Source: Escherichia phage ST2
Direction: 5' to 3' (one strand)
Sequence record: OM982647
Length of the DNA: 64,000 nucleotides
Shown here: positions 3,896 through 58,141 of the stretch, in pieces
Layout of the letters: every line of letters begins with the position of its first letter
How positions within the stretch are numbered: position 1 is the stretch's first letter
Made by a program: the position numbers and the translations under genes
The notes under the pieces: model-generated
Told to the model about the DNA's origin: nothing
Database searches by the model: none
Seen by the model: the letters and a program-made list of their open reading frames with translations, nothing else

Positions 3896-3930
3896 TGATA
3901 GTATCACACATCCATGTGTTTGTAAACTAT
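3896..3930 (-). promoter_or_regulatory. T4-type early promoter
   Basis: Minus strand GTTTACA, 18-nt spacer, GATACTAT -10. Confidence 0.5.
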
Positions 3931-6014
3931 CCTTGGACAAATTTAAACGGAACTGATTCTAAATCCATTAAAGATGCTAACAATTTCAAACCTTTAGGTG
4001 CACTAGTTTTTTCTACAAATGAGGAGAACGATACCGGCTCATCTGATTCGATTTCACCCGCCATAGCAACCACCTCGCCTGTTTCCATGAGAACATCGCC
4101 GTCGTAAATGACAGCTTCATCCAACTGGTCCGAGGACATGACTTCAGCTTGAATAAATTTAAGGTTGGATTCTAAACCTGCACCGGTGTCAGATGACGCA
4201 TCTGTAATTTTATTTATCTGCAAGAGAATGCCTCTAGGCAAAATAATTTCTTGCTCATTAGGGTGATTACTCAACTGTCCTGGATAAATCACGTTAACTT
4301 TATGGGCGCCATCAATAGCCCATCCAACGTTAACACGGATTTGTTCTGGTGCATGCATAGCTGTTCTTACTTGACTAGGAGAAATGGTAACACCTTCGTC
4401 ATTATTGTCAATGTTAAGCTCTTTGCGAACTTCTTCAGGAGCAAGTCCAAGGGCAACGTTCTCTTTAAACCCGCCGAAAATAATAGGAGCTAGTGAAGTG
4501 GAAACATAGTTTCTGAAGTAGAATACCTTATTTTTAACCATTGCTTCGTAAATAGGCATTCTGATAGACTGAGCTCTATATAACGTTAGTCCTTCAGGTA
4601 AACGGTCTCCATTTAAAAACGCCGAATCAAGACCATCAATAGCGCGTTTAACTTCATCTTCATCCGCAACATCGTAAAAATCTGGTTTATAACGACCTAA
4701 CAACATATTATTGATATCGGTATACGCAGAAGAGGCATATTCACGAATAGCTCGTTTTTCAGCAACAGAGTATTGTTTAGGGTCCCGATTCATTGTTATA
4801 TTAAAGGTGCCTCTAGCCGATTCTCGTGCATAAGTATACATCACATTAGACAAGAACGCTGATTTACGTTGTTTCCAAGTTTTTTCAGATACTTCAGCTA
4901 AAACATCGTCGGCCAGTTGGAAATTATCACGTCTAAAATCTTCAAACCATTCGTCTTTAATAGAGTCTGCAATTTCGTTTGCAGCTTCAACAAAAGCAGC
5001 TAATGCTTTAACAGATGTTGTTTTTTCAGTTTTAATTTTCTTAGCAAACTTTTCTAAAGTTGGCTTAATAACACTACCATAAGAAACTTCATCAGCAAAT
5101 CTAAAGGATTCATCAATACGATTATAAATCTTATTTTCGATATCAGCAACTAAAGTGCCTTTTGCTGTGGATGATGCTTGGGCTAGTACGATTTCATATG
5201 CTTCAGGAAGTAATTCGGCTGTAGCCGGGCCACTAACTTCTTTAGCAGAATTTTCGTATTTCTGGAATAACTCACCTTCTTGGCGGTCAGCTTCTAAAGA
5301 TTGGCTTGCGGCAATAGCGCGCCGAGAAATTTTAGTACGAGCAATAACAGGCTTATCTTTACGTTTTTCTTCTACAGCAGCAATAGAACCAGCGATAGCC
5401 GTTTCTTTGGTGACCTTTTCGCCAGTCTTTTTACTCACATAAACTTCGCCAACATCAGAATCTACTTTCGTGTACAACTCTGTGTTAATGTTAGGGATGC
5501 CTTTAATATCTTCAATGTTGGCATTTTTACGAACCATCATCACATAGGTGTGTTTACCTGTGAATTGATACATTGCCGACAATACTTTAAAACGACCACC
5601 GGTTTTAGTAGAAACTAAACGAGCAAGAAGAGTTTGAAGTTGTTGTCCGCGTCCTTTCAATTTCTTGGTAGGGAATCTGAACAGAACCGCGTCCATACGA
5701 AGAGCTTTAACCTGTTCATATACTGTATTGAAAATGGTGTTGATTGCATCAATAGGAGCAGGACCAAGACCGTTTTTCAATTCAGCGAGATTACCCTTTT
5801 CAGACAGACTCATAATAACGACATGAGCATATTTGTCGCCAAGTTTAACTTGTTTTACAGCATCGCCTTCAGAAAGGTAAGAGAATAAGCGAACTACGAT
5901 GTTTGTATCGATATCACCAATTTTCCAGACTTGTGGAACTTTAGCTTTAGGGTTCAAATTGACGACAGGAAGACTGCCTTCAGATTCAAACACTTCATTT
6001 AATTGTTCAGACAT
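3927..6014 (-). CDS. alt: Alt-like ADP-ribosyltransferase (virion-injected)
   Basis: 695 aa (T4 Alt 682 aa); R-S-EXE motifs LYRAQ / YVSTS / NEQEI; between 54 and 30 as in T4. Confidence 0.75.
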   Translation of the reverse strand: MSEQLNEVFESEGSLPVVNLNPKAKVPQVWKIGDIDTNIVVRLFSYLSEGDAVKQVKLGDKYAHVVIMSLSEKGNLAELKNGLGPAPIDAINTIFNTVYEQVKALRMDAVLFRFPTKKLKGRGQQLQTLLARLVSTKTGGRFKVLSAMYQFTGKHTYVMMVRKNANIEDIKGIPNINTELYTKVDSDVGEVYVSKKTGEKVTKETAIAGSIAAVEEKRKDKPVIARTKISRRAIAASQSLEADRQEGELFQKYENSAKEVSGPATAELLPEAYEIVLAQASSTAKGTLVADIENKIYNRIDESFRFADEVSYGSVIKPTLEKFAKKIKTEKTTSVKALAAFVEAANEIADSIKDEWFEDFRRDNFQLADDVLAEVSEKTWKQRKSAFLSNVMYTYARESARGTFNITMNRDPKQYSVAEKRAIREYASSAYTDINNMLLGRYKPDFYDVADEDEVKRAIDGLDSAFLNGDRLPEGLTLYRAQSIRMPIYEAMVKNKVFYFRNYVSTSLAPIIFGGFKENVALGLAPEEVRKELNIDNNDEGVTISPSQVRTAMHAPEQIRVNVGWAIDGAHKVNVIYPGQLSNHPNEQEIILPRGILLQINKITDASSDTGAGLESNLKFIQAEVMSSDQLDEAVIYDGDVLMETGEVVAMAGEIESDEPVSFSSFVEKTSAPKGLKLLASLMDLESVPFKFVQG

Positions 6015-14220: not shown

Positions 14221-14255
14221 GTCATAGTATCACAACTCCACCATGTTGTAAACTT
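14221..14255 (-). promoter_or_regulatory. T4-type early promoter
   Basis: GTTTACA then GTGATACTATG. Confidence 0.45.
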
Positions 14256-16342: not shown

Positions 16343-16379
16343 GGAGCATTATACTCTGCTCCCGAGAGTTTGTAAACTA
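16343..16379 (-). promoter_or_regulatory. T4-type early promoter with palindrome GGAGCA/TGCTCC flanking TATAAT
   Basis: GTTTACA, then TATAAT; near-identical copy at 44664..44700. Confidence 0.5.
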
Positions 16380-17749: not shown

Positions 17750-17784
17750 AGCCATAGTAACACCTTCCTTGGTGTTTGTAAACC
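17750..17784 (-). promoter_or_regulatory. T4-type early promoter
   Basis: GTTTACA then GTGTTACTATGG. Confidence 0.45.
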
Positions 17785-18924: not shown

Positions 18925-18966
18925 TAGTTTTTTTTAAATTGTACCACAATCCTTGTGGTGTGTAAA
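18925..18966 (-). promoter_or_regulatory. T4-type early promoter with CCACAA/TTGTGG inverted repeat in spacer
   Basis: GTTTACA, 17-nt spacer, TACAAT. Confidence 0.5.
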
Positions 18967-39547: not shown

Positions 39548-39580
39548 ATATAGTACCATTATCAGTGTTGATTGTAAACA
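39548..39580 (-). promoter_or_regulatory. T4-type early promoter for asiA
   Basis: GTTTACA, 18-nt spacer, TACTATAT. Confidence 0.5.
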
Positions 39581-50912: not shown

Positions 50913-50930
50913 AAGCTCCCGAAGGAGCTT
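50913..50930 (-). terminator. UUCG hairpin immediately after gene 39 stop
   Basis: AAGCTCC-CGAA-GGAGCTT. Confidence 0.4.
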
Positions 50931-52746
50931 AGGACATCCATTCTTTACGAAGTTCTGAATCATCACCCATCAACATTTCAAAGAGTTCTTTCCAATTTTC
51001 AGGAAGTTTAACTACGTCGTACACAGGGTTCTGAATCATTTCACGATATTCTGACTTTTCAAGGGAGCCTAATCCCTTGATGTATCGAATACTATGCTTA
51101 GGCAGTGTATCTTTAACTTCTTCATACTCAGCTACAGTATAAAACCATTTTTGAGTTTTGCCAATTTGTGCAATAATTACAGGCGTTTTAACAAAGCGAA
51201 TACGTCCTTGTTCAAACAATTCAGGCCAATTACTAAAGAAAGCAAGCAAAGCCGGATAGATACTTCCAAGACCGTCATGATCGGCATCGGTCATAATTGC
51301 AATATTACGATAGTTCGTATTCTCTGCCTTTTCACCAAGAATAAGACCTGTGATAGCACAGATATCAAAGAGCTCTTTGTTCTTCATCATATCGGCATAT
51401 GACATACCCCAGCTATTCATCACCTTACCACGTAATGGGAATCCGCCATGTAGTTCACGGTCACGAACATCAATGAGATAACCAATTGCCGAATCACCTT
51501 CTGTTAAGAACAATGTCGTATCTGCATCTTTACCACATTGGTTAGCTTTAATATGCTTATGAACCTTAGCTTTAGTTGCCTTTTTAGCTGCTTTAGTTTC
51601 TGCAGCCTTTTCTGCTGCCAATTTACGAGCTAATGCTGCTTCAACAATAGGCATAATCAAGGCTTCGTTTTTAAGAAGTGCCTGAGCAATTTTCTTAGCA
51701 TCTAATTGGATATGATTACGAATATCACCGTACGTTGACGTTAAACGTTCTTTAGTCTGAGAATCAAAACGCATGTTGCTCATGTCTCTAATAAACATCA
51801 ACATTGTGAGGCATTCTTTAACACGAGCTTTAGTGACTTCAATACCCTTATATTTCTTTTTAATACCGGGCAAAAGATGTTCGCAGATATCATCCATTAC
51901 GCATTCAACATGATGACCACCATTTTTAGTATGGATGTTATTCACATAAGTTAAATGTCGGAAGCCATCTGGTGATGTTGTGAATGCTATAGAGACTTTA
52001 TCATTTTCTTGAATGATGTTATCTTCGCCAAATTGTTTAGCAAATCGTTTAAAATTACCATCAACCTTTTTACCATTAAATGTGAACTTGATATCAGGAT
52101 AAACGACTGCCAATGTTTGAAGTCGGTCTAAAGTAATATCTAAATAAACTTGAGATAAATTATGCTCTTCAAATGAAGAGAAATCAGGAGTGAAGATTAC
52201 TTTAGTGCCTTTACCTTTAGATTTCTTAGAAGACCATGATTTGTTTTCCATTCCATTTGAACAGTTAACAGTGATTTCATTTTCGCCATCTGACGTGATG
52301 CCTGTAAACAACGTAGAGAAGATATTAGTTAAACTACTCCCGACGCCATTCATACCACCAGTCTTGCGTTCAGAGTCATCACCAAAGTTACCACCTGCCT
52401 TTGGAATAGTCCAGGCTGCTACAGGCCCAGGAATTTGTTCACCTGTTTGGTCGGTAACTAAACCTTGAGGAATACCACGTCCGTTATCTTCCACCGAAAC
52501 TTGATTATTTTTAATTTGCACATCAATTTTATTTGCAAACTTAAATGATGTACGAATAGCTTCATCAACCGAGTTGTCAATAATCTCATCGATTAATTTA
52601 ACCAGACCAGGAACATATTCAACTTGTTGATATTTACCAAACAAAAAACGCTCGTGGGCTTCTTTAGCCGAAGAACCAATATACATACCACTACGTTTCT
52701 TAATATGTTCTACATCTGACAATACCTTAATTTCATTTTTAATCAT
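50929..52746 (-). CDS. 39: DNA topoisomerase II large subunit, unsplit (GyrB-like ATPase plus Toprim in one ORF)
   Basis: 605 aa single ORF; GHKL ATPase N-terminus; length as T2-type fused 39+60. Confidence 0.85.
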   Translation of the reverse strand: MIKNEIKVLSDVEHIKKRSGMYIGSSAKEAHERFLFGKYQQVEYVPGLVKLIDEIIDNSVDEAIRTSFKFANKIDVQIKNNQVSVEDNGRGIPQGLVTDQTGEQIPGPVAAWTIPKAGGNFGDDSERKTGGMNGVGSSLTNIFSTLFTGITSDGENEITVNCSNGMENKSWSSKKSKGKGTKVIFTPDFSSFEEHNLSQVYLDITLDRLQTLAVVYPDIKFTFNGKKVDGNFKRFAKQFGEDNIIQENDKVSIAFTTSPDGFRHLTYVNNIHTKNGGHHVECVMDDICEHLLPGIKKKYKGIEVTKARVKECLTMLMFIRDMSNMRFDSQTKERLTSTYGDIRNHIQLDAKKIAQALLKNEALIMPIVEAALARKLAAEKAAETKAAKKATKAKVHKHIKANQCGKDADTTLFLTEGDSAIGYLIDVRDRELHGGFPLRGKVMNSWGMSYADMMKNKELFDICAITGLILGEKAENTNYRNIAIMTDADHDGLGSIYPALLAFFSNWPELFEQGRIRFVKTPVIIAQIGKTQKWFYTVAEYEEVKDTLPKHSIRYIKGLGSLEKSEYREMIQNPVYDVVKLPENWKELFEMLMGDDSELRKEWMS

Positions 52747-52797
52747 GTTGTCTCCTCGTTATGAAGGTATTCTATCATCCGAAATCTAAAGCAAAAA

Positions 52798-52809
52798 GGG
52801 CCGAAGCCC
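52798..52809 (-). terminator. UUCG hairpin
   Basis: GGGC-CGAA-GCCC with flanking A/T pairs. Confidence 0.45.
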
Positions 52810-53247
52810 TTATTTAAATTTAATTTTCTGAAGTGTATCAATTGCAGCTAAACGCCCTTGTTCACTTTTAACTGTAATGACCACATCGCCTGATACAATC
52901 ACCGAACCATCAACAAATTCTATAGAGCCTTTTTTGAAATCGACAGCTGTATCTGGTTCCGGAACTTCTTCAAAGAATTTGAATTCTGCACCATAAATCA
53001 GAATATCACCTTGCATACTATGAATAGTTCGGCCATAATCGCCTACGGCTTCTACAGCAATCACTGAAACACCATAACCAATCATCTCTTCCACAATAAA
53101 ATCTTTGGACAATAAAGTAGTATGCAGATTAGTATTAAGACGTTTACCAGTCGTATTAAGAATTCTCAAGAAATTATCTTCTTGTCCTTTGATAATACGA
53201 TATTTCTTACCAACTTCAAAACCTTTAAAAGCCGTATTAAAAGCCAT
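52810..53247 (-). CDS. Hypothetical protein
   Basis: 145-aa ORF. Confidence 0.45.
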   Translation of the reverse strand: MAFNTAFKGFEVGKKYRIIKGQEDNFLRILNTTGKRLNTNLHTTLLSKDFIVEEMIGYGVSVIAVEAVGDYGRTIHSMQGDILIYGAEFKFFEEVPEPDTAVDFKKGSIEFVDGSVIVSGDVVITVKSEQGRLAAIDTLQKIKFK

Positions 53248-53249
53248 AA

Positions 53250-53429
53250 TTAACCCTTCTTAAGTAAGTCGTAAAAACCACCGTTCACATGTTTAGGAGC
53301 AGAAACCCGACGAGTAGACAGGCGATGACATTCAGGGCAAACATCGTTTTCTCGTTCAGAAATTCTTTTAATTTTTTCGTATTCATGGCCACAATCTTCA
53401 GATTGGCATTTATAGTCGTATAACGGCAT
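53250..53429 (-). CDS. Small zinc-ribbon protein (CxxC...CPxC), 59 aa (not in ORF track)
   Basis: Hand translation MPLYDYKCQSEDCGHEYEKIKRISERENDVCPECHRL... Confidence 0.45.
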   Translation of the reverse strand: MPLYDYKCQSEDCGHEYEKIKRISERENDVCPECHRLSTRRVSAPKHVNGGFYDLLKKG

Positions 53430-53431
53430 TA

Positions 53432-53842
53432 TTATTCCTTAAAATGTGCTTTCAACATTTGATACAAAGACCATGCCTGGTCATTATTTTCGATAGTAAT
53501 CGTCATCACAGGAAATTCAGTCAATTCATCAAGTTCACCAGAATCTTGCTCTTCAGACGCTTGATACGGATTTCCAACTTCGTCAAAGAACTCTGCTTCA
53601 TTCGTGGAGAGCCAGATAAAGTTTTCATCAAGGATATCACCGCCTGTTGCGTATCCAACCATGCCAGTAGATGTCACAATTTTAGTAGGACGACCAAGAT
53701 GGTCAACATCTAATACTTTAAATGGTTCCATGCCAAGACGTCGTGCATAAATCCCATTATCAGTGTGGTTTTTAATAAACTCTTCTTGGACACGTTTATC
53801 TTTAAATTGGTACCATGAGTTAACGCGGAATTTATTAGCCAT
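53432..53842 (-). CDS. Hypothetical protein (start trimmed to ATG with SD AAGGAA)
   Basis: 136 aa; track start is TTG. Confidence 0.45.
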
Positions 53843-54069
53843 TAGTAAGTTTCCTTCCAATAAGTTGTACCATTTTCAGTGATTTCACGGAAGATACCAT
53901 AGATAGGCATTTCATCACCGAGTTTTTCGTAAACGTAAACCACTTCAGTGTAGCATAAAAATTCAGTCCAGTTTTTCTGTACAACAACTAAATCAGGATT
54001 AAACAGAACATCTTCAAACTCATCGATGTTTGAATCAGTAGTTACGTTTTTAATGATTTGACGTTTCAT
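53842..54069 (-). CDS. Hypothetical protein (start trimmed to ATG with SD GAGGAG)
   Basis: 75 aa; track start runs through promoter. Confidence 0.45.
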
Positions 54070-54084
54070 AATATTCTCCTCTTG

Positions 54085-54125
54085 TTTTGATAGGTCTATA
54101 GTATCATAAACCAGAGGAGAAGTAA
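54085..54125 (-). promoter_or_regulatory. T4-type early promoter
   Basis: GTTTAC then GATACTATAGACC. Confidence 0.45.
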
Positions 54126-54131
54126 ACAACT

Positions 54132-54551
54132 TTATGCAAAAGATGCTGGACAATATTTTTTGATTTGGAACTCAGGAACTACCATGAACTGTCCAGCAAA
54201 AACAATGTTATAAAGCTTGACGCCATCTTCAACCCATTGGTCCGAAATAAAACCAGCAACTTTATTCGTTGTCCATGGAGACCCGTCAGTTGCAGCAGCA
54301 ATAGTAAATTCATGGTCTTTTACAACTAAAACAGATCTGCACAGTTTCCATTTGAACGCACGTTCTTCTGGCTCAATGAACTGGCTTGAGACGTAGCCAA
54401 TGTTGCCATCAGCATCACGAACTTTAACTTGATGTGGACTAAAGAGTCCACAACTTACAGAAAGAACTTCAACCAACTTCCCGGCAACTTTAGAGCGAGA
54501 AGCAACAGATACATATACGTAATCACCTGTAGAGAGATTTACAATATTCAT
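54132..54551 (-). CDS. Hypothetical protein, paralog 1 of tandem pair
   Basis: 139 aa; shares SRSK.AG.LVEV and GFISDQWVEDG.KLYNIVF.G.F.VV motifs with 54561..55016. Confidence 0.5.
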   Translation of the reverse strand: MNIVNLSTGDYVYVSVASRSKVAGKLVEVLSVSCGLFSPHQVKVRDADGNIGYVSSQFIEPEERAFKWKLCRSVLVVKDHEFTIAAATDGSPWTTNKVAGFISDQWVEDGVKLYNIVFAGQFMVVPEFQIKKYCPASFA

Positions 54552-54560
54552 AATAATTCC

Positions 54561-55016
54561 TTAAGCTTTAAGAGGAGACACATAGCGAGTGATTTCAGAT
54601 TCTTTAACAACTCGGAAGTCACCTAAGAATACGATATTGTATAACTTTTCACCATCTTCAACCCATTGGTCACTAATGAAGCCACACATAGTATCAGTTT
54701 TGCTTGGATAACCGTGTTCGTCGATGTAATCAAATTCTTTATCGGTTATAAATTCAACGCCTTTGCAAAGGGCCCATTTGAACTGTACATTAGGTTTGGT
54801 AGAAGCAAAATGAGCGCTCACAGGAGTTTCCAAGAATTTAGGACTTACATAAGCGAACTGAACATCTTTTTGCCCAAAGTTATGAATGATTCGAACTTTA
54901 ACTTCTTTAATGCGTCCCATGCCATTTGTGCGAAGTCCCACCACTTCAACCAATCGTCCTGCAGCTTTAGAACGAGATACAGGCGATACATACTTAATTT
55001 CACCAATAGTAATCAT
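54561..55016 (-). CDS. Hypothetical protein, paralog 2 of tandem pair
   Basis: 151 aa; see paralog 1. Confidence 0.5.
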   Translation of the reverse strand: MITIGEIKYVSPVSRSKAAGRLVEVVGLRTNGMGRIKEVKVRIIHNFGQKDVQFAYVSPKFLETPVSAHFASTKPNVQFKWALCKGVEFITDKEFDYIDEHGYPSKTDTMCGFISDQWVEDGEKLYNIVFLGDFRVVKESEITRYVSPLKA

Positions 55017-55034
55017 AATTTCTCTCTCTCTTTG

Positions 55035-55075
55035 TTTAAATTTAATTCATTATACTCCAACCATCCTTGGTTGTA
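55035..55075 (-). promoter_or_regulatory. T4-type early promoter (consensus GTTTACA-17-TATAAT)
   Basis: Spacer contains AACCA/TGGTT inverted repeat; (CT)n tract in leader. Confidence 0.55.
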
Positions 55076-55083
55076 AACTGGTT

Positions 55084-55761
55084 TTATCGCTGTTTTACAC
55101 TTAACGGGTCAGGATTCTCAGGGACATCTTCAAGGCCAAGCGCATAACGCTGAGCATATTTTAACATCAAAATATCTTTAGCACAATCATGAATACTATC
55201 ATGGGCAACGAATCCTTTTAGCGTACCCATCGGTAATGGACACATACTTAATCCTCGTGTCAACGAGTAAGCTTCGATTGCCGTACGAATATCGCGTTGA
55301 GCCCAGAATTTAACCGGTTCTAATTTATCAGTATCAATATCTGGTTCAAGAACACCTTCATCACGATAGAGGTCACGAATCAAATCGACCAAGATCGGGA
55401 AGTCAAAGCTCATACCACGGCACCACATCTGTGATTTCCATTGGTCAACTTTATTATCTCGGCAATAGTCTAAAAAGATTTTAATGCCTTCAAGCGTAGT
55501 GACATCGTCTTCAGACGGGGCCAAGTTTTTACGCGCTTCAGCCGATTGTTCTTTCCACCATTTCATAGTGGATTTAGCGAAAACTCTCTTCCCTTTCTGA
55601 GAAGCTAAATTAAATTTAATTCGCTTACCACGTTGAACAAGTTCTTCAAATGATTCAACAACTTCAGGGTCGGAATTATATGCAATAACCGCAAGGTCAA
55701 TAACGGCCGCTTTTGATGTATTGCCGAATGTTTCAAAATCTATAATAACATCAGTGCTCAT
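55084..55761 (-). CDS. dexA: Exonuclease A (DEDD 3'-5' exonuclease)
   Basis: 225 aa (T4 227); IIDFETFG motif. Confidence 0.8.
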   Translation of the reverse strand: MSTDVIIDFETFGNTSKAAVIDLAVIAYNSDPEVVESFEELVQRGKRIKFNLASQKGKRVFAKSTMKWWKEQSAEARKNLAPSEDDVTTLEGIKIFLDYCRDNKVDQWKSQMWCRGMSFDFPILVDLIRDLYRDEGVLEPDIDTDKLEPVKFWAQRDIRTAIEAYSLTRGLSMCPLPMGTLKGFVAHDSIHDCAKDILMLKYAQRYALGLEDVPENPDPLSVKQR

Positions 55762-55770
55762 AATTTTCTC

Positions 55771-57084
55771 TCAAATAAAATGGACGTCAAAACGACCACG
55801 AGTCGTGCCGACATACAATAACTGTTTAGCTAATTCTGAATCGGCATAATGGATACACGGTGTATAAACAAAGGCCGTGTCAACAGACATACCCTGGGCC
55901 TTATGGAAGGTTGATACTGGTAGCGCCTTCACCTTAGTGAACATACGTTTAGCATCCCAGAATTCGCTCCATGGAGCTTTACCACCTTTATTCCAGAATT
56001 TATATGTTTCTGCGGCCTTAGCCAAAAACAAATTGAATTTATAAAGCTCTTCTTCAGAAGAAATAACCTTTATATCTTCTCGGATGTATTCTTCATCATC
56101 CCCATATGTTTCTACTGTAAGATTCCAGTATCGTATCATATATTCGCCTGAAACGCCACGTGCTTTAACGAATGTAGACGTTTCTACAGCATCTCGAATA
56201 CGAACGAATTGCCCATTATTGAAAAGCATTTCGGTCATATTTTTACCATCTAGCTTGTACGTCTTAGTAAACGGCTCTTGTAGAACAATGACTTCGTCTT
56301 TAATAAATGGTTTTTCTGTTTCAAGAAGTTTTCGGCGAATAATTGAATTTAACTTGTCCACCGACTTATTTGTGAATGCCATCATTCGATTTTCGAAAAG
56401 GTCTTCAGGAGTTTTAACGACGTTAAAATAGTTCATCATATACGATTTAAGGTCTGTATATCCGTGAACACCGTGTCCATCAACTACTTTATCGTAAATC
56501 CATTTGCCATTACGAATATCAGTCGCAACATCAATAATTGGTGCATTGCTACGTTTAACTTCTGTAAGGTTGCATTGCACGAAGTCTTTGTGAGTGAAGA
56601 AAGGACTTAGATACGCAGTTGATTCGCCTGGGTCTACCGGACGAATCTGGCATCGGTCGCCGATTCCAATTACTGTACACCATTTAGGGATACTAGCTAA
56701 CATTATTTTAAACAGAGAACGGTCGCACATTGACGCTTCATCAAATAACAGTACACGACACAAGGCTAAGTCGGGAACCTTTTTCTGTTCAAACAATACG
56801 TTTTCTTCGTATGTAGTTGGGTTGATTTTAAGAATGCTATGAATAGTCGATGCTTCTTGGCCCGCAAGTTTGCTTAGAACCTTTTTAGCAGCATGTGTAG
56901 GGGCTGCTAAAATAATACCTGATTCTCCAGAAGAAATAAGGGCTTCAACGATGAATCTAGTAAGGGTTGTTTTACCTGTACCAGCAGGCCCATTAATAGT
57001 TACGTGATGTTTCTTTTCTTTAATAGCTTTCATAACAACGTTGAAGGCGTTTTTCTGGCCTTCAGTCAAATCATCAAATGTCAT
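55771..57084 (-). CDS. dda: Dda DNA helicase (SF1B)
   Basis: 437 aa; MTFDDLTEGQKNAFNVVMKAIKEKKHHVTINGPAGTGKTTL... near-identical to T4 Dda. Confidence 0.95.
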   Translation of the reverse strand: MTFDDLTEGQKNAFNVVMKAIKEKKHHVTINGPAGTGKTTLTRFIVEALISSGESGIILAAPTHAAKKVLSKLAGQEASTIHSILKINPTTYEENVLFEQKKVPDLALCRVLLFDEASMCDRSLFKIMLASIPKWCTVIGIGDRCQIRPVDPGESTAYLSPFFTHKDFVQCNLTEVKRSNAPIIDVATDIRNGKWIYDKVVDGHGVHGYTDLKSYMMNYFNVVKTPEDLFENRMMAFTNKSVDKLNSIIRRKLLETEKPFIKDEVIVLQEPFTKTYKLDGKNMTEMLFNNGQFVRIRDAVETSTFVKARGVSGEYMIRYWNLTVETYGDDEEYIREDIKVISSEEELYKFNLFLAKAAETYKFWNKGGKAPWSEFWDAKRMFTKVKALPVSTFHKAQGMSVDTAFVYTPCIHYADSELAKQLLYVGTTRGRFDVHFI

Positions 57085-57392
57085 CGTAAAGTCCCTGCAA
57101 TTGGAATACTAACAATACGGCCTGTGTCCAGGATTCGTTGATACAATCTTTGCGTCTCCGCATCTAGTTTAATGTGTTTCATTTCGAGCTTATTAAACCA
57201 GAACTTACGCGGAGTTTCGACCATTCTTAGAACTCCCATTTTTAAATCTGTTTTATACTGTGTTTTCAAAGTATCGAAAACTTTATCTGCAATATCCTTT
57301 CTAAAAAATACTGCAGGACGATGCTCATCAAGTGGAACCGGGACAGTAAATCCTTCCATATCTCGATAAACTATTGCATATACATAAACCAT
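57081..57392 (-). CDS. Hypothetical protein (dda.1 position)
   Basis: 103-aa ORF. Confidence 0.45.
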   Translation of the reverse strand: MVYVYAIVYRDMEGFTVPVPLDEHRPAVFFRKDIADKVFDTLKTQYKTDLKMGVLRMVETPRKFWFNKLEMKHIKLDAETQRLYQRILDTGRIVSIPIAGTLR

Positions 57393-57394
57393 AA

Positions 57395-58141
57395 TTAACC
57401 TTTAATCAGTTGGAATAATGATGCGCTAAGTGGTAAGCCACGTTTCAATTTTAATTTACCAATGAAACCAATCTTTTCAAAACGTTGCAGACCTTGGATA
57501 ACTTTATCATATGTATCGAAAAGCGATTCAGCGTCAGTTAATTTAGTTTTAGTTTTCCAGTCAGAGCCTTTAAGAAGAACGTTGAGTTTAGTAAGTTCAT
57601 GGCCTTCTGCTTGATGTGAGCCATTAATGCGTGCTTTCAAAGCAACAATTCTAAGTTTAGATTCGTTAGATAAAGGTTGATTTTTCATCATGTTTGCCAT
57701 ATGCTTAACACGATTTTCACGTTTTGCTCGGATTTTTAAAATAGTACCATAAACCTTTTTAATTTGGGCCCATTTCTTCTCGTCGAGATTAAGTTTCTCT
57801 ACTTTACGGGCAGAAGGATTAGCGATACGTCTTGCAACGGCATCACGTTTCTCAATAAGTTCTTCTAATGTTAAATCAGAACGAGCCGTGTTATATTTTT
57901 TCTTAACTGGGATGACATTACCTTTAATGTAGCCTATATCATTATTAAAACGTTCTAAGGATAATTTCTCACCTTCAACAGAGTTATTAAAAGATTCACC
58001 TGAGTAAGCGCAGACCTTTTGATCAAGAATGTTTTTAAGGTAATTAAAGTCTAAGTTAAAATCCTTAGAGCGTCTCTTCGCAGAAGCTCTGGTGTGATCA
58101 AGACGACGATTAATTTTGTTAATTTTATTATTTGATAACAT
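57395..58141 (-). CDS. Highly basic protein, possibly Srd-like
   Basis: 248 aa, K/R-rich; position between dda and mod genes as T4 srd. Confidence 0.35.
   Translation of the reverse strand: MLSNNKINKINRRLDHTRASAKRRSKDFNLDFNYLKNILDQKVCAYSGESFNNSVEGEKLSLERFNNDIGYIKGNVIPVKKKYNTARSDLTLEELIEKRDAVARRIANPSARKVEKLNLDEKKWAQIKKVYGTILKIRAKRENRVKHMANMMKNQPLSNESKLRIVALKARINGSHQAEGHELTKLNVLLKGSDWKTKTKLTDAESLFDTYDKVIQGLQRFEKIGFIGKLKLKRGLPLSASLFQLIKG

What the first reader, a model, noticed from the sequence alone, without database searches (positions are those of the whole stretch)
54132..55016. Tandem paralogous genes of unknown function upstream of dexA
Two adjacent co-transcribed ORFs (139 and 151 aa, 10-nt spacer) share clear sequence blocks (VS.VSRSK.AG.LVEV ... 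GFISDQWVEDG.KLYNIVF.G.F.VV.E..I..Y) but diverge elsewhere. This is the pattern of a duplicated and diversifying gene, as seen for phage host-interaction or anti-defence factors. I do not recognise the family.
Basis: seen in the sequence. Interest (0 to 1): 0.5.

Follow-up and report, generated by a model that had tools for sequence, protein, structure and literature searches.

The report
Two MotB paralogs in T4-like phage
The two neighbouring genes are real paralogs, but both belong to the known T4 MotB family (an early DNA-binding protein that interferes with the host silencer H-NS), and the pair is already annotated in related phages, so this is an ordinary finding with a few new details.

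Summary
Two minus-strand ORFs, A (54561-55016, 151 aa) and B (54132-54551, 139 aa), lie 9 nt apart and are 43% identical (E 2e-32).

The family is known. Both pass Pfam PF17613 (motB) and PHROG 1671. Both are 100% identical to GenBank proteins UUB18401.1 and UUB18400.1 of Escherichia phage ST2. A 2021 paper on MotB already noted that RB69 has two motB copies.

- **A** is the conservative copy: 46% identical to T4 MotB, basic, with a disordered linker.
- **B** is the diverged copy: near-neutral, no linker, all family-invariant residues kept, dN/dS 0.12-0.27.

AlphaFold models show two SH3-like (KOW/Tudor-like) barrels in each.

New details:
- The A-B unit always has the 9-nt spacer. About 200 phage records hold it, in Mosigvirus and some Tequatrovirus.
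- Two early-promoter motifs bracket it.
- It is a mosaic island. It is 81% identical to another Mosigvirus whose flanks are 96-97% identical, and 83% identical to Tequatrovirus RB51 whose flanks are 68-74% identical.
- This window holds the minimal version of the locus. The motB.1-like and motB.2-like genes present in relatives are missing, and the junctions fall inside promoter repeats.

B's function is untested. Low interest; already known.

The parts
55049..55077 (-). Early-promoter-like site (TTTACA-17 nt-TATAAT) between dexA and gene A. An inverted repeat AACCA-AGGA-TGGTT lies in its spacer. It is the upstream boundary of the A-B module.
   Evidence: 11 of 12 consensus matches; the motif TTTACW-N17-TAYWAT occurs 9 times in the window against 0.37 expected; the sequence is a hybrid of the two promoter repeats that flank the motB.1-like gene in phage AV112.
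54561..55016 (-). motB copy A, 151 aa plus stop. This is the conservative MotB-type copy. N-terminal KOW/SH3-like barrel: aa 1-62 (54831-55016). Variable disordered linker: aa 63-78 (54783-54830). C-terminal barrel: aa 79-151 (54564-54782).
54552..54560 (-). 9-nt spacer GGAATTATT. Together with the stop codon of A it forms a Shine-Dalgarno-like AAGGA 6 nt before the ATG of B.
   Evidence: The same 9-nt spacing occurs in AV112, AV115, phi25-307, RB51, moha, G53, pSe_SNUABM_01 and LF82-16.
54132..54551 (-). motB copy B, 139 aa plus stop. This is the diverged 'MotB-like' paralog. N-terminal barrel: aa 1-65 (54357-54551). C-terminal barrel: aa 66-139 (54135-54356). It has no linker and is near-neutral.
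   Evidence: Pfam PF17613 at 2e-22. phrog_1671 at 3.6e-50. 38% identical to T4 MotB. AF2 pLDDT 85.9, pTM 0.71. Foldseek matches tandem Tudor at E 7.6e-4. pI 6.7. Identical to UUB18400.1 of phage ST2.
54098..54126 (-). Second early-promoter-like site (TTTACT-17 nt-TACTAT) between B and cef. It is the downstream boundary of the module.
   Evidence: the sequence is a hybrid of the -35 half of the AV112 promoter before the motB.2-like gene and the -10 half of the AV112 promoter before cef.

Best explanation
The two ORFs are a bicistronic pair of motB genes of a T4-like Mosigvirus. At this locus the window is identical to Escherichia phage ST2. Copy A is the counterpart of T4 MotB. By inference it is an abundant early protein that binds DNA without sequence specificity through two small beta-barrels (a KOW/SH3-like N-terminal barrel and a second C-terminal barrel) and a basic N-terminal half. 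By the same inference it coats and compacts DNA, overrides H-NS/StpA binding, and modestly raises burst size. Copy B arose by duplication of a motB gene and diverged fast. It then became fixed as a compact version with no linker and a near-neutral charge. It keeps every family-invariant residue and is under purifying selection, so it is functional. Its most likely role is a MotB-type nucleic-acid or nucleoid-protein binder with altered affinity or a different partner, made together with A from one early transcript. The pair behaves as one exchangeable cassette bounded by early-promoter repeats. Recombination at such repeats removed the neighbouring motB.1-like and motB.2-like genes in this lineage. 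Shown here: homology, family membership by sequence, the predicted fold, conservation, purifying selection, the mosaic pattern, and the promoter motifs at the junctions. Inferred: early expression, DNA binding, H-NS antagonism, and any division of labour between A and B.
For: Paralogy: 43% identity, E 2e-32. Family: PF17613 at 125.3 and 80.2 bits against a cut-off of 25; phrog_1671. All 18-19 invariant columns of a 39-41 sequence family alignment are present in both proteins. Synteny dda-dexA-[motB cluster]-cef-goF-39.2-like-39 matches T4. T4 MotB function comes from PMC6070864 (toxic, non-specific DNA binding, co-purifies with H-NS and StpA, 2-fold burst) and PMC7827196 (alters the H-NS footprint, up-regulates H-NS-regulon genes, KOW plus beta-barrel domains, RB69 has two motB copies). 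Fold: AF2 pLDDT 85-86, with SH3-like tandem-barrel matches to 53BP1 tandem Tudor, Spt5 KOW6-7 and NusG KOW. B is functional: 139 aa in essentially all relatives, at least 80% identity in 207 phage records, dN/dS 0.12-0.27. A is the conservative copy and B the divergent one: mean identity of A to the T4-type is 52%, of B 42%. NJ bootstrap support for an A+B clade is 70%. Charge: A has pI 8.5 with an N-terminal half of net +7; B has pI 6.7 with an N-terminal half of net -1; T4 MotB has pI 9.2. Cassette: the 9-nt spacer is invariant in 9 genomes of two genera. Promoter motifs bracket the pair. Hybrid promoter junctions sit where AV112 carries extra genes.
Against: No experiment exists on either Mosigvirus copy. 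T4 MotB is only 46% (A) and 38% (B) identical to them. B lacks the basic N-terminal half and the linker, so it may not bind DNA as MotB does. The physiological role of MotB is itself only partly understood: motB is non-essential, its loss has a mild phenotype, and the T4 transcriptome is unaffected by a motB knockdown. The promoter calls are consensus matches only. The A+B clade has only moderate support, so B could be an older paralog lost in T4-type phages.
Confidence: 0.8

Rival explanations
1. Arms-race reading. A and B are anti-defence or host-range factors kept in two diversifying copies, each neutralising a different host factor, such as different H-NS-family silencers or a defence system. 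Positive selection would act on exposed loops.
For: The module is 2-5 times more divergent than its flanks between close relatives, and dN/dS is higher (about 0.2 against 0.01-0.08). Variation clusters in the hairpin at aa 45-54 and the linker of A, and in the loop at aa 33-41 of B. Alleles are exchanged across genera. The locus varies between 2 and 4 genes of the MotB, MotB.1 and MotB.2 types. T4 MotB counteracts H-NS, a xenogeneic silencer (PMC7827196).
Against: Gene-wide dN/dS is well below 1, and dS is raised as much as dN. That fits old alleles spread by recombination rather than rapid adaptive change. No defence system is known to be countered by MotB. The PADLOC scan found nothing, although that library holds defence proteins, not anti-defence proteins. 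A and B always occur together, which does not look like presence/absence variation.
Confidence: 0.15
2. B is a redundant or decaying duplicate with no function of its own.
For: B has lost the basic N-terminal character and the linker. It sits on the longest branch of the family tree.
Against: B has an intact 139-aa frame in every genome inspected. It is at least 80% identical in 207 records. dN/dS is 0.12-0.27. All family-invariant residues are kept. The fold is predicted with confidence. It has its own ribosome-binding site.
Confidence: 0.03
3. The proteins act on RNA polymerase or RNA rather than on DNA and H-NS. They would be KOW-type NusG/Spt5-like elongation or RNA-binding factors, as the historical name 'modifier of transcription' implies.
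Confidence: 0.07

Closest known systems
Bacteriophage T4 MotB (Pfam PF17613; NP_049626.1)
   Same: Same Pfam family. Same two-barrel architecture. Same invariant motifs: SRSKxAG...VEV in the N-terminal domain, FKW and D.WVE.G.KLYN.VF.G in the C-terminal domain. Same genomic neighbourhood between dexA and cef. An early-promoter motif lies upstream.
   Different: T4 has a single motB of 162 aa; here there are two copies. A is 46% identical and has a shorter linker. B is 38% identical, has no linker, has a shortened N-terminal hairpin, and is not basic. Function has been tested only for the T4 protein.
RB69 / RB51 'MotB' plus 'MotB-like protein' pairs (e.g. RB51ORF011 and RB51ORF010, L005)
   Same: Direct orthologs of A (77-88% identity) and B (88%). 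Same order, same 9-nt spacer, same lengths for B. The double motB of RB69 is mentioned in PMC7827196.
   Different: Those genomes also carry motB.1 and, in most cases, motB.2 homologs next to the pair. This window, like phi25-307, has neither.
T4 MotB.1 and its full-length relatives (AV112 164 aa, RB51 169 aa)
   Same: They share the conserved C-terminal barrel motif GWVTDQWIEDG..L.NVV. The AV112 164-aa protein is 62% identical to B over 29 residues.
   Different: They have an unrelated, LSm-like N-terminal domain (PMC12152347) and are acidic. No such gene is present in the window.
PeSL promoter-stem-loop cassettes of T4-type phages (PMC2839356, PMC4122927)
   Same: The promoter motif matches the published PST/T4 consensus TTTACW-N17-TAYWAT. 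The motifs sit exactly at the gene gain/loss junctions between close relatives in a hyperplastic early region.
   Different: The inverted repeat here lies inside the promoter spacer, not in a separate terminator hairpin. No terminator-like site was detected at either junction. Recombination activity was not tested.
Tandem Tudor / tandem KOW domains (53BP1, Spt5 KOW6-KOW7)
   Different: Sequence identity is 11-19% and TM is only 0.35-0.44. There is no aromatic-cage evidence. This is a fold resemblance only, not family membership.

Membership tests
MotB (Pfam PF17613) | Score above the Pfam gathering threshold (25 bits) | tested here: met
   A scores 125.3 bits over profile positions 2-160 of 162. 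B scores 80.2 bits. PHROG 1671 'MotB-like' gives 1.6e-61 and 3.6e-50.
MotB (Pfam PF17613) | Family-invariant residues in both domains | tested here: met
   All 18 (A) and 19 (B) invariant columns of the 41- and 39-sequence alignments are present in the window proteins.
MotB (Pfam PF17613) | Two-domain architecture: N-terminal KOW/SH3-like barrel plus C-terminal beta-barrel (PMC7827196) | tested here: met
MotB (Pfam PF17613) | Position in the early dda-dexA...cef-goF-39 region of a Tevenvirinae genome | tested here: met
   Gene order, compared with T4.
MotB (Pfam PF17613) | Non-specific DNA binding, co-purification with H-NS/StpA, toxicity in E. coli | not testable with these tools
   Known only for T4 MotB (PMC6070864, PMC7827196). 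Indirect data here: A is basic (pI 8.5) and B is not (pI 6.7).
PeSL-type regulatory cassette | Sigma-70-like early promoter matching TTTACW-N17-TAYWAT | tested here: met
   Sites at 55049-55077 and 54098-54126. There are 9 sites in the window against 0.37 expected.
PeSL-type regulatory cassette | Adjacent stem-loop acting as a terminator | tested here: not met
   No terminator-like site lies at either junction. The only inverted repeat is short (5 bp) and lies inside the promoter spacer.
PeSL-type regulatory cassette | Located at indel or replacement junctions between closely related phages | tested here: met
   The junction sequences are hybrids of the AV112 promoter repeats that flank the 164-aa and 174-aa genes. 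The identity breakpoints coincide with them.

The most novel reading that the evidence does not exclude
B is not a spare MotB. It is an obligate partner or modulator of A, always co-translated with it. One version: B forms a heteromer that tunes or caps MotB filaments on DNA and limits their toxicity. Another version: B targets a different nucleoid protein (StpA, Hha/YdgT or Hfq) than A does. Under this reading the A-B cassette is a mobile two-component counter-silencing module that moves between T4-like genera by recombination at promoter repeats.
Probability: 0.2. Interest if true: 0.45.

Novelty: already known. Interest (0 to 1): 0.2.

Why it matters
For a genome scan, this finding can be closed. 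The 'unknown tandem paralogs' are the MotB and MotB-like genes of RB69-type phages, which are already in GenBank and Pfam, and the double motB of RB69 is mentioned in the literature. One biological question is left. About a quarter of MotB-encoding phage records keep a second, non-basic, linker-less MotB welded to the first. Nobody has tested why. MotB is one of the few phage proteins known to act on H-NS and on nucleoid structure, so the A/B pair is a natural experiment on which parts of MotB matter: the basic N-terminal half and the linker are present in A and absent in B. The clean promoter-to-promoter junctions also give a tidy example of cassette gain and loss in T4-type early regions.

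Tried and rejected
- Sequence search of A against PDB chains found nothing at E up to 1, so no solved structure of the family exists.
- PADLOC and NCBIfam scans of both proteins found nothing.
- An Rfam scan of 52500-57500 at E up to 0.1 found nothing, so there is no known RNA element in or around the pair.
- tblastn for remnants of motB.1-like or motB.2-like genes, or for the 29-aa RB69 peptide, anywhere in the 64-kb window matched only the C-terminal domains of A and B.
- Plus-strand ORFs overlapping the pair (for example 54666..55076, 136 aa) have no support and lie antisense to two conserved genes. I treated them as spurious.
- Son et al. 2021 (NAR, PMC8450097) and the 2026 AV110 preprint could not be retrieved. 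The DNA-compaction claim therefore rests only on the title as cited in PMC12152347 and on a sentence in PMC13096335.
- I considered a toxin-antitoxin-like reading (T4 MotB is toxic and B would be its antidote). No evidence bears on it, so I folded it into the novel case.
- I considered that the high divergence meant positive selection. I rejected this as the main cause because dS is raised as much as dN.

Full report
**1. The observation**

The window region 54132-55016 holds two minus-strand ORFs. A is 54561..55016 (151 aa). B is 54132..54551 (139 aa).

They are separated by 9 nt, not 10. On the coding strand this reads TAA-GGAATTATT-ATG, which places an AAGGA Shine-Dalgarno-like element 6 nt before the ATG of B.

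BLASTP of A against B gives 43% identity over 145 columns, E 2e-32.

In the direction of transcription the pair lies downstream of dexA (55084..55761). dexA in turn follows dda (55771..57084).

**2. The family**

- Both proteins pass Pfam PF17613 'motB, modifier of transcription'. A scores 125.3 bits over the full length and B scores 80.2 bits, against a gathering score of 25.
- Both match PHROG 1671 'MotB-like transcriptional regulator', at 1.6e-61 and 3.6e-50.
- The neighbours are Cef (PF24050), a GoF-like protein, a zinc-ribbon 39.2-like protein and the topoisomerase large subunit. This is the T4 early region dda-dexA-motB cluster-cef-goF-39.2-39.
- The 2-kb segment is about 95% identical to Mosigvirus phages (AV112, phi25-307, JS09 and others), whose annotations already read 'MotB-like transcriptional regulator (x2)'.
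- Both proteins are in GenBank with exactly these sequences, as UUB18401.1 and UUB18400.1, 'transcriptional regulator [Escherichia phage ST2]'.

**3. What is known about MotB**

- It binds unmodified and glucosyl-hmC DNA without sequence specificity.
- It co-purifies with H-NS and StpA and doubles burst size. The T4 transcriptome barely changes without it (PMC6070864).
- It overrides the H-NS footprint at proV and up-regulates 75 host genes, about a third of them in the H-NS regulon.
[quoted passage not shown] The duplication is therefore already on record, though nobody has studied it.
- A later paper (Son et al. 2021, known to me only from its citation) reports DNA compaction and H-NS derepression.
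- MotB.1 shares the MotB C-terminal domain but has an LSm-like N-terminal domain (PMC12152347).

**4. How A and B relate to T4 and to each other**

- T4 MotB is 46% identical to A and 38% to B.
- In a 41-sequence alignment the mean identities run as follows. A against the T4-type is 52% and against the JS98/VR-type 55%. B is only 42-46% identical to every other group. B-type proteins are 89% alike among themselves.
- An NJ tree puts B on a long branch beside the A clade. The A+B split has 70% bootstrap support.
- The best reading is a duplication in the A lineage followed by rapid divergence of B. An older origin is not excluded.
- B keeps all invariant family columns. It has a shortened N-terminal hairpin and no interdomain linker.
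- A is basic (pI 8.5; N-terminal half plus linker net +7), like T4 MotB (pI 9.2). B is near neutral (pI 6.7; N-terminal half net -1).

**5. Predicted structure**

- AlphaFold2 with family alignments gives confident all-beta models.
- A has pLDDT 84.8 and pTM 0.49, with residues 66-75 disordered between two barrels.
- B has pLDDT 85.9 and pTM 0.71, with the two barrels packed and no disordered segment.
- Foldseek on B finds tandem Tudor domains over about 125 columns (E about 1e-3, TM 0.37-0.44).
- This agrees with the published KOW assignment and suggests that both domains are SH3-like small barrels.
- These matches are generic and say little about function. No solved structure of the family exists.

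**6. Distribution and linkage**

- tblastn finds B-type genes at 80% identity or more in 207 phage records. Below that there is a clean gap, with the next matches under 60% identity, in 570 records.
- A-type genes at 60% identity or more occur in 201 records.
- In all nine genomes inspected the order is A then B with exactly 9 nt between them. This includes the Tequatroviruses RB51 and pSe_SNUABM_01.
- A-B is therefore a fixed two-gene unit present in roughly a quarter of MotB-encoding phages.

**7. A variable locus with promoter-bounded cassettes**

- AV112 has dexA, a MotB.1-like gene (164 aa), A, B, a MotB.2-like gene (174 aa), then cef.
- AV115 lacks the first of these extra genes.
- The window and phi25-307 lack both, and no remnant is left in the window.
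- Each AV112 gene is preceded by an early-promoter-like repeat.
- The window's dexA-A junction carries the left half of the AV112 promoter before the 164-aa gene (GTTTACAACCAAGGATGGTTGG). This is joined at the shared core GGAGTATAAT to the right half of the promoter before A.
- The window's B-cef junction joins the -35 half of the promoter before the 174-aa gene to the -10 half of the cef promoter.
- Both junctions match TTTACW-N17-TAYWAT, the PST/T4 PeSL promoter consensus (PMC4122927). That motif occurs 9 times in the window against 0.37 expected by chance, 8 of them on the minus strand.
- T4 and RB51 also have motB.1 and motB.2, so loss in the window's lineage by promoter-to-promoter recombination is the simplest reading. 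This is the modular shuffling described for T4-type phages (PMC2839356).
- No terminator hairpin was found at either junction, so full PeSL membership is not met.
- The AV112-type MotB.2-like gene is present at 90% identity or more in 147 records. Among the top 30 hits only phi25-307 shares the two-gene state, so the minimal configuration seen here is uncommon.

**8. Selection and mosaicism**

| Comparison with the window | Flanking genes | A-B module |
|---|---|---|
| dS against six Mosigvirus genomes | 0.02-0.18 (dda, dexA, cef, zinc-ribbon gene) | 0.18-0.60 |
| dN/dS against the same genomes | mostly 0.00-0.08 | 0.14-0.28 |
| nt identity to Mosigvirus LF82-16 | 96-97% | 80.6% |
| nt identity to Tequatrovirus RB51 | 68-74% | 82.9% |

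- The breakpoints fall near the two promoter motifs.
- The pair is therefore an old, recombining allele set exchanged across genera. It is under purifying selection that is more relaxed than in its neighbours.
- It is not a gene pair under gene-wide positive selection.
- Variable positions cluster in the hairpin at aa 45-54 and the linker at aa 64-77 of A. The linker is also length-polymorphic, with up to 25 extra residues in acidic repeat-like units.
- In B the variable positions cluster in the loop at aa 33-41.
- Site-specific positive selection there remains untested.

**9. Verdict**

The finding is real but ordinary. It is a known, annotated pair of MotB paralogs. A is most likely a MotB-type nucleoid and H-NS modulator.

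B is a conserved, structurally compact, non-basic paralog whose specific role is unknown. My best guess is a MotB-like binder with altered affinity or partner, made together with A.

Nothing supports an anti-defence role beyond the link to H-NS counter-silencing. PADLOC, NCBIfam and Rfam scans were empty.

Noticed in passing
window 3898-3926, 14224-14252, 16348-16376, 17754-17782, 18938-18966, 39550-39578, 54098-54126, 55049-55077 (all minus strand): There are eight minus-strand matches to the early-promoter motif TTTACW-N17-TAYWAT; counting both strands, 9 matches occur against 0.37 expected. Most carry a short inverted repeat inside the -35/-10 spacer, centred on AAGGA or GGA (for example CACC-AAGGAA-GGTG, CCACAAGGATTGTGG, AACCA-AGGA-TGGTT). 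This could be a conserved spacer hairpin, or a recombination-prone core of these promoters.
   Followed up: partly
window 52810-53247 and 53432-53860 (minus strand): This is a second pair of distant paralogs. The GoF-like gene is listed as 142 aa from a TTG; the real start is probably the ATG at 53842, giving 136 aa that are 74% identical to T4 GoF. The 145-aa ORF next to gene 39 hits the same PHROG 622 as the GoF-like gene (6e-38 and 1e-21). The two flank a 59-aa zinc-ribbon gene (53250-53429). The 145-aa gene also shows raised divergence against some relatives (dS up to 0.31).
   Followed up: partly
window 53842-54153 (minus strand): The mechanical ORF list gives cef as 103 aa from a TTG that overlaps the end of gene B. 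Relatives annotate a 75-aa Cef starting at the ATG at 54069. That start follows the promoter-like site at 54098-54126 and a GAGGAG ribosome-binding site.
   Followed up: yes
proteins P0035, P0124, P0029 (metagenome contigs of 1-4 kb): These are chimeric MotB proteins. P0035 is an A-type N-terminal domain joined to a B-type C-terminal domain at the FKW motif. P0029 is A-type up to GFISDQWVEDG, then a B-type tail. P0124 is a T4-type N-terminal domain with a B-type C-terminal domain. They are either real unequal-crossover fusions that collapse the pair into one gene, or assembly chimeras at the shared repeat.
   Followed up: no
L004 (T4) 4292-4651; L001 3359-3853; L005 2663-3172: T4 MotB.1 (119 aa) ends at ...GGWVTDQWIGRWR. 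That point lies inside the conserved C-terminal motif, which continues for about 30 more residues in AV112 (164 aa) and RB51 (169 aa). The T4 reference gene looks C-terminally truncated, and 150 nt of non-coding DNA lie before motB.
   Followed up: no
A-type alleles P0017-P0034, aligned to window 54783-54830: The interdomain linker of copy A is length-polymorphic among alleles, with 0 to about 25 extra residues. The extra residues come in acidic, repeat-like units (EEVESRDGYVCES, EEVAPAHFAS, DIV). The window carries the shortest form.
   Followed up: partly
window 55761-55771 and 50929-52746: dda is followed directly by dexA with a 9-nt gap, so the dexA.1 and dexA.2 genes of T4 and RB51 are absent. 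Gene 39 encodes a 605-aa unsplit topoisomerase large subunit, unlike the split 39/60 arrangement of T4.
   Followed up: no
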